64,000 nucleotides of DNA from a virus (Duplodnaviria > Caudoviricetes), in IMG/VR virus record IMGVR_UViG_3300024331_000007, positions 1-64,000 of that record; one strand, 5' to 3'. Shown here one piece after another: positions 1,851 to 42,953 of this stretch. Position 1 is the stretch's first letter, and every line of letters begins with the position of its first letter. A model generated the notes under the pieces. That model saw only the letters and a program-made list of their open reading frames with translations, did not search any database and was not told the DNA's origin. Position numbers and translations under genes: made by a program.

Positions 1851-3035
1851 ATGTCAACACCATTATTGGAAAATCGTTGGGCTGATACAAAGAATGCCCT
1901 GCTCGAAGGACTAACAGGAAATCGCAAAACGGTTATGAGTGTAGTCCTAGAGAACACCCGCAAGCAATTGCGTGAAGCTGCTACCGCAGGTTCCACATCT
2001 GCTGGTAACATTGCTACACTTAACCGCGTCATTCTTCCCGTTATTCGACGTGTTATGCCAACCGTTATCGCTAACGAATTGGTCGGCGTACAGCCAATGA
2101 CAGGTCCAGTCGGTCAGATTCAGACTCTCCGTGTTCGTTACGGACAGACTGATAATGTCACTGCTCCTTATCCTTGGAACACAAGCGTAACAGCGGGTGA
2201 TGAAGCCCTATCCCCATTCAAGATTGCAACAGCCTACTCTGGTAGCTCCACAACAGGACAGGCAGATTGGACAGCAAACTTGGAAGGTCAGGCAGGTAAC
2301 AAGATCAATGTTCAGATTCTACGTCAGACAGTAGAAGCTAAGAGCCGTAAGCTCTCCGCTCGCTGGACGTTTGAAGCTGCTCAGGATGCTCAGGCAATGC
2401 ACGGCATCGACATTGAAGCAGAAATCATGGCTGCTCTTGCACAGGAAATTACAGCAGAAATCGATCAGGAAATTCTTGGTTCGCTCTATGCACTTTCTGG
2501 AACAGATCAGACATTCGACCAGTCTTTGGTCAGTGGTACAGCAACATATGTTGGTGACGAGCATGCTGCCTTGGCAATCATGATCAACCGCGCCAGCAAC
2601 TTGATTGCACAGCGTACCCGTCGTGGTGCAGGTAACTGGGCCGTTGTTAGCCCAATTGCATTGACTGTTCTTCAGTCAGCAACCACATCAGCTTTTGCAC
2701 GTACCACAGAAGGTACATTCGAAGCTCCAACAAACACCAAGTTTGTCGGAACATTGAACGGTTCTTTGAAGGTTTACGTCAACGGCTACGCCAATGACTC
2801 CGTGCCAGTTCTAGTCGGCTACAAGGGTTCTTCGGAATCTGACGCAGCAGCCTTCTACTGTCCATACATTCCTTTGATGAGTTCTGGTGTCGTTCTTGAT
2901 CCAGTGACCTTCGAACCTGTTACTAGCTTCTTGACCCGTTATGGATACATCGAGCTAACAAACAGCGCAAGTTCTTTGGGAAATGCTGGCGATTACCTTT
3001 CAAGTATTGCCGTCGCAAATCTTTCTTTCAGTTAA
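1851..3035 (+). CDS. major capsid protein (T4 gp23-like)
   Basis: Motifs VIRRVMPTVIANELVGVQPMTGPVGQI, VEAKSRKLSARWTFEAAQD, AEIMAALAQEITAEIDQEI, FYCPYIPL, TRYG. Confidence 0.97.
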   Translation: MSTPLLENRWADTKNALLEGLTGNRKTVMSVVLENTRKQLREAATAGSTSAGNIATLNRVILPVIRRVMPTVIANELVGVQPMTGPVGQIQTLRVRYGQTDNVTAPYPWNTSVTAGDEALSPFKIATAYSGSSTTGQADWTANLEGQAGNKINVQILRQTVEAKSRKLSARWTFEAAQDAQAMHGIDIEAEIMAALAQEITAEIDQEILGSLYALSGTDQTFDQSLVSGTATYVGDEHAALAIMINRASNLIAQRTRRGAGNWAVVSPIALTVLQSATTSAFARTTEGTFEAPTNTKFVGTLNGSLKVYVNGYANDSVPVLVGYKGSSESDAAAFYCPYIPLMSSGVVLDPVTFEPVTSFLTRYGYIELTNSASSLGNAGDYLSSIAVANLSFS

Positions 3036-8213: not shown

Positions 8214-8289
8214 TGGTTGCGGGGAGAGGATTTGCACCTCTGTCTCTGAGGTTATGAGCCTAGTGTATGACCTACGCTACCACCCCGCT
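8214..8289 (-). tRNA. initiator-like tRNA-Met (CAT)
   Basis: AGCGGGG.../CCCCGCA with 1:72 mismatch, CT-CAT-AA, CCA. Confidence 0.8.
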
Positions 8290-12137: not shown

Positions 12138-12147
12138 AAAACTTTTC

Positions 12148-12269
12148 GGAACATACCGCGACGGGAATCGCACCCGCATTTGTTACGCAACTACTGTGCA
12201 TCACTTTGTTATTTCTTGCCCCGGTTTTTTAGACCAGCGCCTCTACTTTTCGGCTACACAGTACGTTCC
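12148..12269 (-). ncRNA. tRNA-like RNA, AAA anticodon, 13-bp acceptor helix, long variable insert, no CCA
   Basis: GGAACGTACTGTG/CGCGGTATGTTCC; D, anticodon and T arms recognisable. Confidence 0.65.
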
Positions 12270-12598
12270 AAACTAAACTTTCTACTGGCAGAATTGCAAT
12301 AAAACTGGTCAGTAGTAGAGCGACGATTTATATTAGCATTGCCGACTACTCAGTACATCATTGGGCTTTTCAGTCGCTCTCGTTCCTACTCAGTTGTTCC
12401 CAATTTCTCTTTTTCATACAGCAAAGCGGTGGAAGTCGTCAGGCTATTTTTCTCCCAATATCATTGATGTACGGTGGATCAAGCAACACAGCATATTCAA
12501 CATATATACTCTTGAGTCGCAGGTTATACAACCGTATTGTGTTGCCCATTTGATTATTCGTTCAAGGTTTATTAGTTCCTTGATTGTACATCAAACTT

Positions 12599-37713: not shown

Positions 37714-37789
37714 TGGTGCATTCGGAGGGATTTGAACCCCCATCAATTCGATTAAAAGTCGAGTATAATGTCCGTTATACGACGAATGC
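37714..37789 (-). tRNA. tRNA-Lys (TTT)
   Basis: CT-TTT-AA. Confidence 0.9.
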
Positions 37790-39179: not shown

Positions 39180-39596
39180 TCATAACCACCCCAACTTTCT
39201 GAATTTTTCGATACACGGCTTCCATATTTTTGGCTGTAAATTCTTCAATTCTGAAATTGGATACCACTTCCAGTTTCCAATTTTGTGCGGTTCATTTTCT
39301 TTTGGTTCGCCGCTGACATATTGCCCCACATAATAGACAGTGAGATAATGCTTGTCTTCGTCTGGGTGCAAATCTTCTGTGAATCCAATCAACTCAACTT
39401 TGCCAACTTTTAAGCCGCACTCTTCCAACGCCTCTCTACGTGCGCATTCTTCGGTGGTTTCGTACAGTTCAAGTTTTCCACCGGGTAAACTTAATTTGCC
39501 ATTCCCAAAATCTGATTCGCGGATTCCAAGCAAAATGGAATCATCTTTCTGAATGATCAATCCTACTCCGATTTGTGGTCGTTTGATTTTTGACAT
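39180..39596 (-). CDS. Nudix hydrolase
   Basis: GGKLELYETTEECARREALEECG Nudix box. Confidence 0.92.
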   Translation of the reverse strand: MSKIKRPQIGVGLIIQKDDSILLGIRESDFGNGKLSLPGGKLELYETTEECARREALEECGLKVGKVELIGFTEDLHPDEDKHYLTVYYVGQYVSGEPKENEPHKIGNWKWYPISELKNLQPKIWKPCIEKFRKLGWL

Positions 39597-39611
39597 GATT
39601 GACTTTGTTTT

Positions 39612-39699
39612 GGGATAATCTGGAGAGGGACTCGAACCCTATGATTATTTGGGTAGTTAAAAGCTACCTTGGCTCCCCGCCAGCGCAACAGATTATCCC
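39612..39699 (-). ncRNA. tRNA-like RNA, TTT anticodon, 11-bp acceptor helix, no CCA
   Basis: GGGATAATCTG/CAGATTATCCC; GGTAG-CT TTT AA-CTACC; TTCGAGT. Confidence 0.65.
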
Positions 39700-41204
39700 A
39701 AACTTGTTAAATTTACTTTGATAACTTACCTATGATTCTATCAGCAATAATAACAATTACCAATCCGAAAAGAGCCGTCGCGCCAAAAAGATTTGGACTA
39801 TGAGATGCCACGCCTACGGCAATCGCCGTTAGGAACATACAAAATAGGCACAATAAAAAATCTCGAATGTCCATGTTAGTATCCGCTTGGAATTGTGATT
39901 GGAAGGCCGAGGGTACGAATAACCTTTGCCATTCCACGAGCGCGTTCTCGGGCCATGTTAGCTCCGCTGGAATTGCCATCGAAAGAATTTTTGACAGTAT
40001 CGACCAAACGAGAGAACTCGGCTTGAACTTCAGTCACGGATTCAAGAGTTACTTTGACTGGCTGTGTTGCAATTGGATTTTTAGGCATGATTTCCCTTTC
40101 TGTTATACGTCAAGTTTTTGGGTATGCTTGTGTACAAACTCAAAATTACAGACTGTGCAGCGACCCTTGTAAAAACTGTAATATTCGCCGTTCTCAACGC
40201 CTTGACTGTAATCTTCGCGGAATGTTTGTGGTTCAGATTCGTCTACTTTTTTCGCCTCTGCAAGTTTTTCGATAAGAACATTGTATGCCTTAATCGAAAC
40301 TTTTCCATAGGCTTCATTTAACGCCGTTCTCGCGGCCTCGACTTTGTTTGTGTATGTCTGAGTACATTTTGGGCAAACTGTCCAATTATCGGCCCTCATC
40401 GATTCCCTTTCTGATTATTTCGGCGGATAAATGTGAGGATGTTTCAGGATCGATTCAGCAGCATGAATCCATGCGGCTTCTGGTGTTTTGTCAGGCCATG
40501 CAAACCGAAGTCCTTTGGCCGCAAAAATTTCGTAGTTAAAAATACGAACAGGAACAGGACTCGGCGTTGAATACTCATCAAAAAATTGCTTCACAACTTT
40601 TGCTTTTGGAAAATGATTGCGAACAATTTTGATTGCTTCAATCTTTGTCATCGATTCCCTTTCAAAGTTTCAGCAATGAGTTGGATTGATTACCAACTTG
40701 ACTTGTACTGCAACGAATCCCGATAGCATAGCCCCTGATTGTTAGGGAAAATTTTTTAGGACCTTTTCGAACGATCCTACTATGTATCTAACCAGCCCAT
40801 CGTTGCCCCATAGATTGTATGCAAGCGGTATATATGCCAGCTTTGTTGGCTCCGCTGATATTTGCTAGATGCCCATTGTCGCCAATGGCAATATCAATAC
40901 AATTTCAGTCGTCCTATGAAACGGCAGTCCAACACTGCCAGTCATTGCGATACAAACCAAGTATACTAAATATCCACTCGGATGTCAAATAAATACGGAC
41001 AATTTAGTAAAGGCTTTAGAATCACTGTCATATGGACACTTTGAATCCCATTTTCATTTATCTGAATGTAGTCCACCGTCTCAGGATCGATATTTGATTG
41101 CTTGAGATAATCTGTTACGGCTTTCGCCATCTCCTGCTCATTACGCATGTTCATTGGCGAATGATAGCAACTTTCGCTGGAAAAGTCAATTGTCATAAAT
41201 ATCA

Positions 41205-42877: not shown

Positions 42878-42953
42878 GGCGGATATAGTTCAATGGCAGA
42901 ACGCTTGCCTGTGGCGCAAGTTGTTGAGGGTTCGAGTCCCTCTATCCGCCCCA
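42878..42953 (+). tRNA. tRNA-His (GTG)
   Basis: G-1:C73, CT-GTG-GC. Confidence 0.9.

What the first reader, a model, noticed from the sequence alone, without database searches (positions are those of the whole stretch)
39612..39699. Second long-acceptor tRNA-like RNA (TTT loop, 11-bp perfect acceptor, no CCA)
Seen: GGGATAATCTG/CAGATTATCCC closes a cloverleaf with GGTAG-CT TTT AA-CTACC and TAGGG-TTCGAGT-CCCT. It is isolated from other tRNAs and lies just upstream of a Nudix gene. With 12148-12269 it suggests a class of non-chargeable tRNA mimics, such as decoys for Lys-specific anticodon nucleases (PrrC targets tRNA-Lys(UUU)).
Basis: partly seen in the sequence, partly recalled or inferred. 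Interest (0 to 1): 0.62.

Follow-up and report, generated by a model that had tools for sequence, protein, structure and literature searches.

The report
Clamped, tail-less tRNA-Lys look-alike RNA
A 360-kb soil phage carries a 94-base gene for a tRNA-shaped RNA with a lysine-type (UUU) loop whose two ends are zipped into a long helix where a working tRNA has its free CCA tail, so it is almost certainly not a working tRNA; similar clamped, tail-less tRNA look-alikes turn up in related giant phages, and their job is unknown.

Summary
On the minus strand, 39609-39702 folds into a cloverleaf. The D hairpin is odd, the variable loop is 11 nt, and there are three non-Watson-Crick layers at the acceptor/T junction. 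ARAGORN and the Rfam tRNA model both miss it.

Read in the tRNA frame, it is a 12-layer acceptor/T stack plus exactly 6 extra base pairs and 3 weak flank pairs. The NCCA tail is replaced by helix. The sibling at 12148-12269 (anticodon AAA) has the same +6/+3 design, the same leader and the same GG...CC ends.

I found no sequence homologue in any collection searched. The architecture does recur in relatives: an uncultured 239-kb phage, Sinorhizobium phage Phosso and Agrobacterium phage Atu_ph07. There, as here, nearly all normal tRNAs encode CCA and show no such extension.

Best reading (about 0.4): a non-chargeable, non-decoding tRNA mimic made from the operon transcript. The anticodon-nuclease decoy idea is untested, and the loop lacks the motif that PARIS AriB needs. 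Rivals are a processing or stability module, a young relic, or a clamped precursor.

Earlier notes of this scan describe clamped tRNA-like RNAs in other phage genomes.

The parts
39609..39702 (-). Whole clamped tRNA-shaped element (94 nt): UUUGGGAUAAUCUG-UU-G-CGC-[D hairpin]-A-[anticodon-type arm]-11 nt-[T arm]-C-UC-CAGAUUAUCCCAAA
   Evidence: Sequence. Inverted-repeat scan. Fold energies. Self-hit of model R1 at 123 bits, the only hit in the genome.
39689..39702 (-). 5' strand of the 14-bp perfect clamp (UUU + GGGAUAAUCUG). G at 39699 follows the phage's usual tRNA leader AAGTTT.
39609..39622 (-). 3' strand of the clamp (CAGAUUAUCCC + AAA). It contains a paired C-CCA string at 39614-39611.
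39670..39682 (-). D-like hairpin UGGC-GGGGA-GCCA (4 bp, 5-nt G-rich loop). It is preceded by a 3-nt connector instead of the usual 2.
   Evidence: pair probability 0.84-0.92.
39652..39668 (-). Anticodon-type arm GGUAG-CUUUUAA-CUACC. UUU lies at 39661-39659.
   Evidence: The 17-mer occurs in no tRNA gene of 185,579 species genomes.
39641..39651 (-). Unpaired A/U-rich 11-nt variable region (CAAAUAAUCAU). It repeats the hexamer AUAAUC of the clamp's 5' strand.
   Evidence: direct reading.
39626..39640 (-). T arm AGGG-UUCGAGU-CCCU with a consensus T loop. A 17-nt stretch is identical to the T arm of tRNA-His at 42879-42953.
39623..39625 (-). CUC between the T stem and the perfect helix. With UUG at 39686-39688 it makes three layers (U.C, U.U, then G-C), so the acceptor/T stack runs to 18 layers from G39699.
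   Evidence: Direct reading.
39180..39596 (-). Downstream gene for a Nudix hydrolase of the MutT/NUDT1/NUDT15 type. Its start is 12 nt after the clamp, with a weak AAAG ribosome-binding site.
39713..39979 (-). Upstream small membrane-protein ORF with no known relatives. Its stop codon lies 10 nt before the clamp.
12145..12272 (-). Sibling element: a class II-like tRNA body with anticodon AAA, a 13-bp acceptor (7 + 6) plus 3 flank pairs, and no CCA.
39590..39619 (+). Antisense sigma-70-like promoter match TTGACA-18-GATAAT with TG. Its -10 hexamer lies in the clamp. Status unknown.
   Evidence: 26 such matches genome-wide against about 11.5 in shuffles.

Best explanation
The element is a gene for a small, structured, non-decoding RNA: a tRNA-shaped molecule with its acceptor end clamped shut.

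Shown:
- It keeps the two tRNA modules that other molecules read. These are the elbow (a consensus T loop plus a G-rich D loop) and a 5-bp/7-nt anticodon-type arm showing UUU.
- Its acceptor/T stack is 18 layers long instead of 12.
- The single-stranded NCCA tail is replaced by 6 further base pairs plus 3 weak A-U pairs.

Inferred from established tRNA biology:
- CCA-adding enzyme, aminoacyl-tRNA synthetases, EF-Tu and the ribosome all depend on a free 3' end and a 12-13-bp acceptor/T arm. This RNA therefore cannot be charged or used in decoding.

Inferred from context:
- It is transcribed with the small ORFs upstream and the Nudix gene downstream, as part of the minus-strand unit that runs into the tRNA array.
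- It probably begins at G39699, behind the same AAGTTT leader as the real tRNAs.

It belongs, by architecture and not by sequence, to a recurrent set of acceptor-extended, CCA-less tRNA look-alikes in the tRNA regions of T4-related jumbo phages.

Most likely mode of action (a guess, not shown): it works in trans by being bound in place of a real tRNA. It would occupy a factor that reads the tRNA elbow and/or a U-rich anticodon loop, such as a host tRNA-directed nuclease, without being consumed in translation.
For: Structure and significance.

Not a canonical tRNA.

Normal tRNAs of the phage:
- About 49 of 52 carry N73-CCA followed by A.
- All have at most 2 bp of leader/trailer pairing.
- The phage has no CCA-adding enzyme gene.

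The sibling at 12148-12269 has the same +6 bp/+3 bp extension, the same leader, GG...CC ends and a complementary anticodon.

The same architecture in relatives:
- G004 82508-82608: a canonical tRNA-Asn(GUU) body (60.6 bits), acceptor extended by 14 bp, G73-CAA instead of CCA.
- Phosso 421192-421274: tRNA-Asn(GUU), +5 bp, no CCA. The phage has two further Asn(GUU) genes, which my CCA/extension filter did not flag.
- Atu_ph07 323899-324030: +7 bp, 5'-GGAUUGU...GCAAUCC-3', no CCA, a 53-nt insert in the anticodon loop, unannotated, between small same-strand ORFs and beside normal CCA-bearing tRNAs.
- Two clamped paralogues in G004 differ by 4 fully compensatory and 2 wobble changes in the clamp, so such clamps are kept at the RNA level.

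Chance alone does not explain the clamp. Extending a 7-bp acceptor by 7 perfect pairs has a probability of about 6e-5.
Against: - No sequence homologue of this element was found anywhere, so there is no covariation or conservation for it.
- There are no expression data.
- A clamp with 14 perfect Watson-Crick pairs and no G.U could be a young DNA-level palindrome and not a selected RNA helix.
- The junction is sloppy: three non-Watson-Crick layers, a 3-nt connector and an 11-nt loose variable loop. That would also suit a decaying gene.
- The class is defined by architecture only. Its members have different bodies and extension lengths (5, 6, 6, 7 and 14 bp) and may not share a function.
- The anticodon stem-loop copies no known bacterial tRNA-Lys.
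- It lacks the UAAU motif needed by AriB.
- No partner protein was identified. There is no Ro60/TROVE gene.
Confidence: 0.4

Rival explanations
1. It is a cis-acting processing or stability module of the operon mRNA. The tRNA-like fold and its clamp would be cut by host RNase P, RNase E or RNase III, or would simply sit as a stable 5' structure. Either way it sets or protects the 5' end of the Nudix message, as tRNAs punctuate transcripts elsewhere.
For: - The element fills the 116-nt gap between two same-strand genes and ends 12 nt before the Nudix start.
- At least 11 real tRNAs of this phage are followed within 25 nt by a ribosome-binding site and a start codon, so 'tRNA then ORF' is a house style.
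- The Atu_ph07 look-alike also lies between small same-strand ORFs.
- RNase III takes part in maturing phage T4 tRNAs (PMC4810235).
Against: - A plain hairpin would do for stability, so this does not explain the kept T loop, D loop and anticodon-type loop.
- The sibling at 12148-12269 is followed by another tRNA, not an ORF.
- A 14-bp helix is short for RNase III.
- The phage has no RNase III of its own.
- An unbroken extension without a bulge at -1 hampers RNase P.
- Nudix homologues elsewhere lack the element.
Confidence: 0.2
2. It is a non-functional by-product: a former tRNA gene of the fast-turning tRNA array, or a recombination or template-switch product that made a palindrome around tRNA pieces. 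On this view it is young enough to look tidy.
For: - It is a singleton with no homologue.
- It lies in a hyperplastic region without synteny to relatives.
- That region is full of homing endonucleases and tRNA remnants (and earlier notes).
- The junction and D region are degenerate.
- The clamp is all Watson-Crick, as a fresh DNA palindrome would be.
Against: - All four helices are free of mismatches, whereas decay should hit stems and loops alike.
- The sibling has the same +6/+3 design, with three G.U pairs in its 13-bp clamp helix and a fourth in the flank. That is a signature of pairing kept at the RNA level.
- The architecture recurs in three other phages, each time together with loss of CCA.
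Confidence: 0.25
3. It is a clamped precursor of a working tRNA-Lys. The leader/trailer helix would be a processing stem, as in rRNA operons. After cleavage and trimming the host would add CCA and the RNA would decode AAA/AAG.
For: - The clamped tRNA-Asn genes of G004 and Phosso have fully canonical bodies and could mature this way.
- The leader motif is shared with real tRNAs.
Against: - In any 7/5, 8/4 or 9/4 frame the acceptor stem of this element has two adjacent mismatches next to a mismatched T-stem pair.
- The T stem has 4 bp, position 8 is not U, the D arm is shifted and the variable loop is 11 nt unpaired.
- The tRNA model gives no score at all.
- The phage already has a canonical Lys(UUU) gene and a Lys(CUU) gene with CCA in this window, plus an irregular Lys(UUU) call and another Lys(CUU) gene elsewhere in the genome.
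Confidence: 0.05
4. It is a DNA-level element. The 14-bp inverted repeat would be a protein-binding or cruciform site, or part of an antisense promoter (TTGACA-18-GATAAT with TG on the plus strand), and the tRNA likeness would be incidental.
For: An 11-of-12 sigma-70 match with an extended -10 overlaps the clamp and the Nudix start. About 0.002 such matches are expected in so small a target by chance.
Against: - About half of such matches genome-wide are expected by chance (26 found against 11.5 in shuffles).
- There is no plus-strand gene for 1.5 kb downstream.
- This does not explain the consensus T arm and anticodon-type arm between the repeats.
- The sibling's clamp contains G.U pairs, which have no meaning in DNA.
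Confidence: 0.05

Closest known systems
Canonical bacterial and phage tRNA-Lys(UUU) (Rfam RF00005), including the phage's own gene at 37714-37789
   Same: - Cloverleaf order of arms.
- Consensus T loop with G53-C61.
- 5-bp anticodon stem with loop C-U-UUU-A-A.
- G-rich D loop.
- Same leader motif and strand as the phage's tRNA array.
   Different: - 18-layer acceptor/T stack instead of 12.
- No single-stranded NCCA.
- 4-bp T stem, three mismatched layers at the junction, an 11-nt variable loop and a 5-nt D loop.
- No score with the tRNA model.
- No sequence similarity beyond the T arm.
allo-tRNAs, tRNA-Sec and the 'irregular tRNAs' of soil metatranscriptome polycistrons (Mukai et al. 2016, PMC5389517)
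   Same: - Longer acceptor stem with a 4-bp T stem.
- Found in soil and in phages.
- Some are charged but not used in translation, or are inactive, and are discussed as regulatory RNAs.
   Different: - Those keep a 12-13-bp acceptor branch (8/4, 9/3, 9/4) and a free CCA end.
- This one has 18 layers and a buried end.
- It has no long variable arm.
mascRNA/MALAT1 tRNA-like element, with an acceptor stem extended by leader-trailer pairing (PMC8457004)
   Same: - A tRNA-like fold embedded in a longer transcript.
- The acceptor stem continues into a leader/trailer helix.
- Its function is RNA processing, not decoding.
   Different: - It is eukaryotic.
- The extension carries a bulged A at -1 that RNase P needs, whereas here the extension is unbroken.
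- mascRNA gets CCA added after release.
YrlA-type Y RNAs of bacteria and phages
   Same: A small phage or bacterial RNA with a long closing helix and a tRNA-like elbow, which acts by being bound.
   Different: - YrlA is permuted: the closing helix takes the place of the anticodon stem.
- It has a Ro60-binding helix and travels with a Ro60/TROVE gene.
- Here the arm order is that of a normal tRNA, Rfam gives no hit and the phage has no TROVE gene.
Nuclease-resistant phage tRNAs, such as T5 tRNA-Lys(UUU) against PARIS (PMC11464382, PMC12409363; PMC10264068)
   Same: A phage-encoded RNA with a Lys(UUU) loop whose stem-loop differs from host tRNA-Lys at position 39.
   Different: - Those are working, chargeable tRNAs that replace the cut host tRNA.
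- This RNA cannot be charged, so it could act only as a decoy, for which no precedent was found.
Leader-trailer processing stems of rRNA operons, and RNase III-dependent maturation of phage T4 tRNAs (PMC4810235)
   Same: A helix formed by sequences flanking a stable RNA inside a polycistronic transcript.
   Different: Those stems are usually about 20 bp or longer and are removed to free a functional RNA. Here the stem is 14 bp and the body inside is not a usable tRNA.

Membership tests
Canonical tRNA (Rfam RF00005) | Scores at or above the family gathering score (29 bits) with the covariance model, or is called by ARAGORN | tested here: not met
   There is no ARAGORN call. There is no RF00005 match at gathering score, nor at E<=10 in a 401-nt search.
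Canonical tRNA (Rfam RF00005) | 7-bp acceptor stacked on a 5-bp T stem (12 bp), with a single-stranded N73-CCA end, encoded or added | tested here: not met
   There are 18 layers from G39699 to the T loop (21 with the flanks), three of them non-Watson-Crick. Positions 73-78 are paired.
Canonical tRNA (Rfam RF00005) | Consensus T loop (U54 U55 C56 R57 A58, G53-C61) and a 7-nt anticodon loop Y32-U33-NNN-R37 | tested here: met
   The T loop is UUCGAGU closed by G-C. The anticodon-type loop is CUUUUAA.
allo-tRNA / tRNA-Sec-type (8/4, 9/3, 9/4) | Acceptor branch of 12-13 bp in all, with a free CCA end and a long variable arm | tested here: not met
   The T stem has 4 bp, but the branch has 18 layers. 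The variable region is 11 nt and unpaired. Definition taken from PMC5389517.
YrlA / Y RNA | Match to the Rfam model, a permuted tRNA-like domain, and a Ro60 (TROVE) gene in the genome | tested here: not met
   There is no Rfam match at E<=10. The arm order is D, anticodon, T, as in tRNA. PF05731 is absent from the 90%-complete genome. A host Ro60 cannot be excluded.
Acceptor-extended, CCA-less tRNA look-alikes of jumbo phages (working class defined here) | A tRNA-type T arm and elbow; an acceptor helix continued by at least 5 bp of leader/trailer pairing; no CCA at 74-76; located in a phage whose normal tRNAs nearly all encode CCA and lack such pairing | tested here: met
   This element and its sibling. 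G004. Phosso and Atu_ph07.
Acceptor-extended, CCA-less tRNA look-alikes of jumbo phages (working class defined here) | Common descent or a common function of the members | tested here: inconclusive
   Members share no sequence similarity (model R1 finds none). Only the terminal GGA...UCC motif is shared by three of them.
   The 17-nt stem-loop occurs in no tRNA gene of 185,579 species genomes. It reads UAAC where AriB needs UAAU. The determinants of PrrC and RloC could not be tested.
   This needs a biochemical assay.

The most novel reading that the evidence does not exclude
The UUU element and its AAA sibling are a designed pair within an undescribed class of phage RNAs. The class would be tRNA bodies made unchargeable by a measured extension of the acceptor helix (+6 bp here). 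They would act as look-alikes that soak up host factors aimed at tRNAs with U/A-rich anticodon loops (anticodon nucleases or similar), or that pair with each other or with host tRNA anticodons through their complementary loops. Clamped versions of tRNA-Asn(GUU) in two relatives would belong to the same counter-defence theme, since Lys(UUU) and Asn(GUU) are both PARIS targets.
Probability: 0.15. Interest if true: 0.8.

Novelty: new variant of a known kind. Interest (0 to 1): 0.5.

Why it matters
Phage tRNA genes are now seen as weapons against host tRNA-cutting defences. All known cases are working tRNAs that replace the damaged ones.

A recurrent set of phage RNAs that keep the tRNA shape but are built so that they cannot be charged would point to a second use of that shape: as decoy, competitor or processing signal. 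Standard tRNA finders and genome annotation miss such genes or mislabel them. The Atu_ph07 copy is unannotated.

Two members lie in cultured phages with tractable hosts (Agrobacterium phage Atu_ph07 and Sinorhizobium phage Phosso), so the question can be tested at the bench.

For this element alone the case is weaker. It is a singleton without conservation, so its value lies mainly in the shared design with its sibling and with the look-alikes in relatives.

Tried and rejected
Searches for homologues, all negative:
1. Nucleotide search of cultured phages: no match.
2. Three pattern scans of 2.9 million IMG/VR contigs, for the T arm plus 3' strand, for the stem-loop plus T arm, and for a degenerate loop-spacing pattern: 0 hits each.
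3. A single-sequence covariance model (R1) run against the phage's own genome, 52 IMG/VR records including all terminase relatives, and PA5oct, Phosso and Atu_ph07: only itself. The weak hits were ordinary tRNAs.

Synteny route:
- The one metagenome scan returned only relatives of at most 45% identity, without the element.
- Neighbouring ORFs have no relatives.
- G001 to G004 show no synteny for 11-50 kb of the window.

Ideas tested and rejected:
- Y RNA: rejected on arm order, no Rfam hit and no TROVE gene.
- Descent from tRNA-His: considered because of a 17-nt identity and a possible G-1:C73-CCA reading. Rejected because the similarity is confined to a T arm common to many of the phage's tRNAs, and because the sibling has no CCA string at all.
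- Copy of a host tRNA-Lys stem-loop: rejected.
- Phage-encoded RNase III or CCA-adding enzyme as partners: neither gene is present.
- A last pattern scan for orthologues of the clamped tRNA-Asn of G004 found only G004 itself.

Full report
**Setting.** The window is the first 64 kb of a 359,890-bp IMG/VR virus record, about 90% complete. It is a T4-related jumbo phage. Its large terminase is 79% identical to that of an uncultured fragment. It is 52% identical to the Pseudomonas phage PA5oct group and 48-49% identical to Sinorhizobium phage Phosso and Agrobacterium phage Atu_ph07. The window holds 44 ARAGORN tRNA genes, a GOLLD RNA and an RNase P RNA. The whole genome has 52 ARAGORN tRNAs.

**The observation.** On the minus strand, 39702 to 39609 reads UUUGGGAUAAUCUG-UU-G-CGC-[UGGC-GGGGA-GCCA]-A-[GGUAG-CUUUUAA-CUACC]-CAAAUAAUCAU-[AGGG-UUCGAGU-CCCU]-C-UC-CAGAUUAUCCCAAA.
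- The closing inverted repeat is perfect over 14 bp, not 11. It is the longest repeat with a 40-130-nt loop in the genome; the other 44 are 10-12 bp. I estimate 0.12 such 14-mers by chance.
- The T loop is textbook, and the anticodon-type loop follows Y-U-NNN-R-N.
- All 27 pairs in the four helices are Watson-Crick.
- The cloverleaf is iso-energetic with the minimum-free-energy fold: -33.9 against -34.1 kcal/mol.
- The element is real and not a chance hairpin.

**Why it is not a tRNA.** ARAGORN does not call it. The Rfam tRNA model gives no match even at E<=10 when only 401 nt are searched; only the bare T arm matches unrelated models. The reasons are visible in the sequence:
- Counting back from the T loop in the tRNA frame, pair 49:65 is U.C.
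- Pairs 7:66 and 6:67 are U.U and U.C.
- The T stem has 4 real pairs.
- The connector to the D hairpin has 3 nt.
- The D loop has 5 nt.
- The variable loop has 11 unpaired nt.

Beyond tRNA position 1:72 the helix simply goes on for 6 perfect pairs (GGGAUA/UAUCCC) and then 3 A-U pairs. Positions 73-78, where a tRNA has its free NCCA, are therefore double-stranded. The letters C-CCA do occur at 39614-39611 but are paired with the leader UGGG. I considered a His-like reading (G-1:C73-CCA) and dropped it. The 17-nt identity with tRNA-His is confined to a T arm shared by many of the phage's tRNAs, and the sibling has no such string.

**How the phage's real tRNAs look.**
- About 49 of the 52 encode N73-CCA, usually followed by A.
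- All have 0-2 bp of leader/trailer pairing.
- Most are preceded by an A/T-rich leader that often reads AAGTTT, with T at -1 in 39 of 52.
- The phage has no CCA-adding enzyme.
- The element has the leader (ACAAGTTT|GGG) but not the tail.

It is thus laid out like a gene of the array but built so that its end is closed.

**The sibling.** 12148-12269 scores 37.6 bits as a tRNA with a 43-nt variable region and anticodon AAA. Its canonical 7-bp acceptor is likewise continued by exactly 6 pairs (GGAACG/UGUUCC) and 3 weak flank pairs. It has the leader AAGTTTAGTTT|GG and no CCA. Both RNAs therefore have 18 layers from the 5' G to the T loop, or 21 with the flanks. Both have 5'-GG...CC-3' ends, and their anticodons are complementary. 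With two cases this is suggestive, not proof. The clamp of the sibling holds three G.U pairs in its 13 bp and a fourth in the flank, which points to pairing at the RNA level.

**Search for homologues.** None was found.
- Nucleotide search of cultured phages.
- Pattern scans of IMG/VR.
- A covariance model built from the element (R1) finds only itself in the genome. It finds nothing but ordinary tRNAs in 52 IMG/VR records and three cultured relatives.
- The neighbours are ORFans.
- The 11-50-kb part of the window has no synteny with four large relatives.
- Nudix homologues elsewhere have no such RNA upstream.

**Recurrence of the architecture.** I scanned relatives for a T-arm motif closed by a helix of at least 10 pairs.
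- G004 (239 kb, terminase 55% identical) gave three cases in its tRNA array.
  - One is a fully canonical tRNA-Asn(GUU) (60.6 bits). Its leader and trailer extend the acceptor by 14 bp, and it has G73-CAA instead of CCA.
  - The other two are paralogous 100-nt RNAs with 21-22-bp clamps that differ by 4 fully compensatory and 2 wobble changes.
- Phosso has a tRNA-Asn(GUU) with a 5-bp extension and no CCA. It also has two further Asn(GUU) genes that my CCA/extension filter did not flag, and a 124-nt clamped cloverleaf-like RNA that Rfam does not recognise.
- Atu_ph07 has an unannotated 132-nt element between small same-strand ORFs. It has a canonical acceptor, D arm and T arm, a 53-nt insert in the anticodon loop, a 7-bp extension with ends GGAUUGU/GCAAUCC and no CCA. 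It lies right beside two normal CCA-bearing tRNAs.

In every one of these phages nearly all the normal tRNAs carry CCA and none shows such an extension. Extension and loss of CCA go together in all five cloverleaf cases. This is my own result. Earlier notes of this scan report similar clamped tRNA-like RNAs in other phage genomes; I used those only as leads.

**What it most likely does.** Established tRNA biology says that a buried 3' end and an acceptor/T arm six pairs too long exclude CCA addition, charging, EF-Tu binding and decoding. An unbroken coaxial extension also hampers RNase P at the tRNA +1 site (PMC8457004). What remains exposed is the elbow and the UUU loop. I therefore read the element as a non-chargeable tRNA look-alike that acts by being bound, at a confidence of about 0.4.

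- Against it: the stem-loop copies no tRNA gene in 185,579 species genomes. It reads UAAC where PARIS AriB needs UAAU. The AAA sibling does not fit.
- Mildly for it: Lys(UUU) and Asn(GUU), the anticodons of three of the five clamped cloverleaves, are among the three AriB targets. This is a post hoc observation.

**Rivals.**
- A cis processing or stability module for the Nudix message (0.2). At least 11 real tRNAs of this phage are followed within 25 nt by an ORF start.
- A young non-functional by-product of the hyperplastic array (0.25).
- A clamped precursor of a working tRNA (0.05).
- A DNA-level element (0.05). An 11-of-12 sigma-70 match with TG lies on the opposite strand with its -10 in the clamp; I cannot explain it.

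Y RNA is rejected: the arm order is not permuted, there is no Rfam hit and there is no TROVE gene. The Nudix gene is of the MutT/NUDT1/NUDT15 type, with no evident link to tRNA.

**Verdict.** The 'non-chargeable tRNA mimic' reading is supported by structure, by the sibling and by look-alikes in relatives. The decoy mechanism is untested. I did not find the architecture described in the papers searched. For this particular element there is no conservation or expression evidence, so I rate it of moderate interest.

Noticed in passing
window 39590-39619 (+): A near-consensus sigma-70 promoter match (TTGACA-18-GATAAT with TG) points antisense through the element. Its -35 overlaps the Nudix start codon and its -10 lies in the clamp. 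Genome-wide there are 26 matches of this quality against about 11.5 in shuffles.
   Followed up: partly
L198 (G004 80001-100000): G004 81434-81533 and 83559-83660, minus strand: Two paralogous RNAs of about 100 nt have 21-22-bp clamps around a shared core (a hairpin plus the T arm GGGG-UUCAAGU-CCCC). The clamps differ by 4 fully compensatory and 2 wobble changes. Neither gave a match at Rfam gathering score.
   Followed up: partly
L198 2180-2414 (-) = G004 82180-82414: A group I intron match (56 bits) lies about 100 nt downstream of the clamped, CCA-less tRNA-Asn(GUU) of G004, not inside any tRNA call.
   Followed up: no
L324 1400-1531 (-) = Atu_ph07 NC_042013.1 323899-324030: An unannotated 132-nt clamped tRNA-like gene sits in a cultured phage. 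Rfam scores it 57 bits as tRNA. It has a 53-nt insert with a second T-arm-like hairpin in the anticodon loop, a 7-bp acceptor extension and no CCA. The table fetched for this stretch lists no tRNA feature for it or for the two normal tRNAs next to it.
   Followed up: partly
L284 about 1866-1989 (+) = Phosso PV764938.1 401866-401989: A 124-nt cloverleaf-like RNA with a 13-pair clamp and a T-arm-like hairpin. Rfam does not recognise it at gathering score.
   Followed up: no
window 24801-24876 (-): The gene ARAGORN calls tRNA-Lys(ttt) has an odd anticodon loop: either CAUUUAC with A at position 33, or a 6-bp stem with a 6-nt loop. It is probably not an ordinary Lys tRNA.
   Followed up: no
window 8221-8286 (-) and 21560-21700 (-): Two further tRNA-like genes are missed by ARAGORN. 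One has a CAU loop and ACCA (Rfam 29.7 bits). The other has a good acceptor and T arm but ends UCCG instead of NCCA.
   Followed up: no
window 39641-39651 and 39689-39699 (-): The loose variable loop repeats the hexamer AUAAUC of the clamp's 5' strand. It could pair with the clamp's 3' strand (6 bp) as an alternative fold. This may be chance.
   Followed up: no
window 24352-24428, 24878-24953, 25202-25279 (-): The phage encodes two CUA (amber) and one UUA (ochre) suppressor-type tRNAs, which suggests stop-codon read-through or recoding.
   Followed up: no
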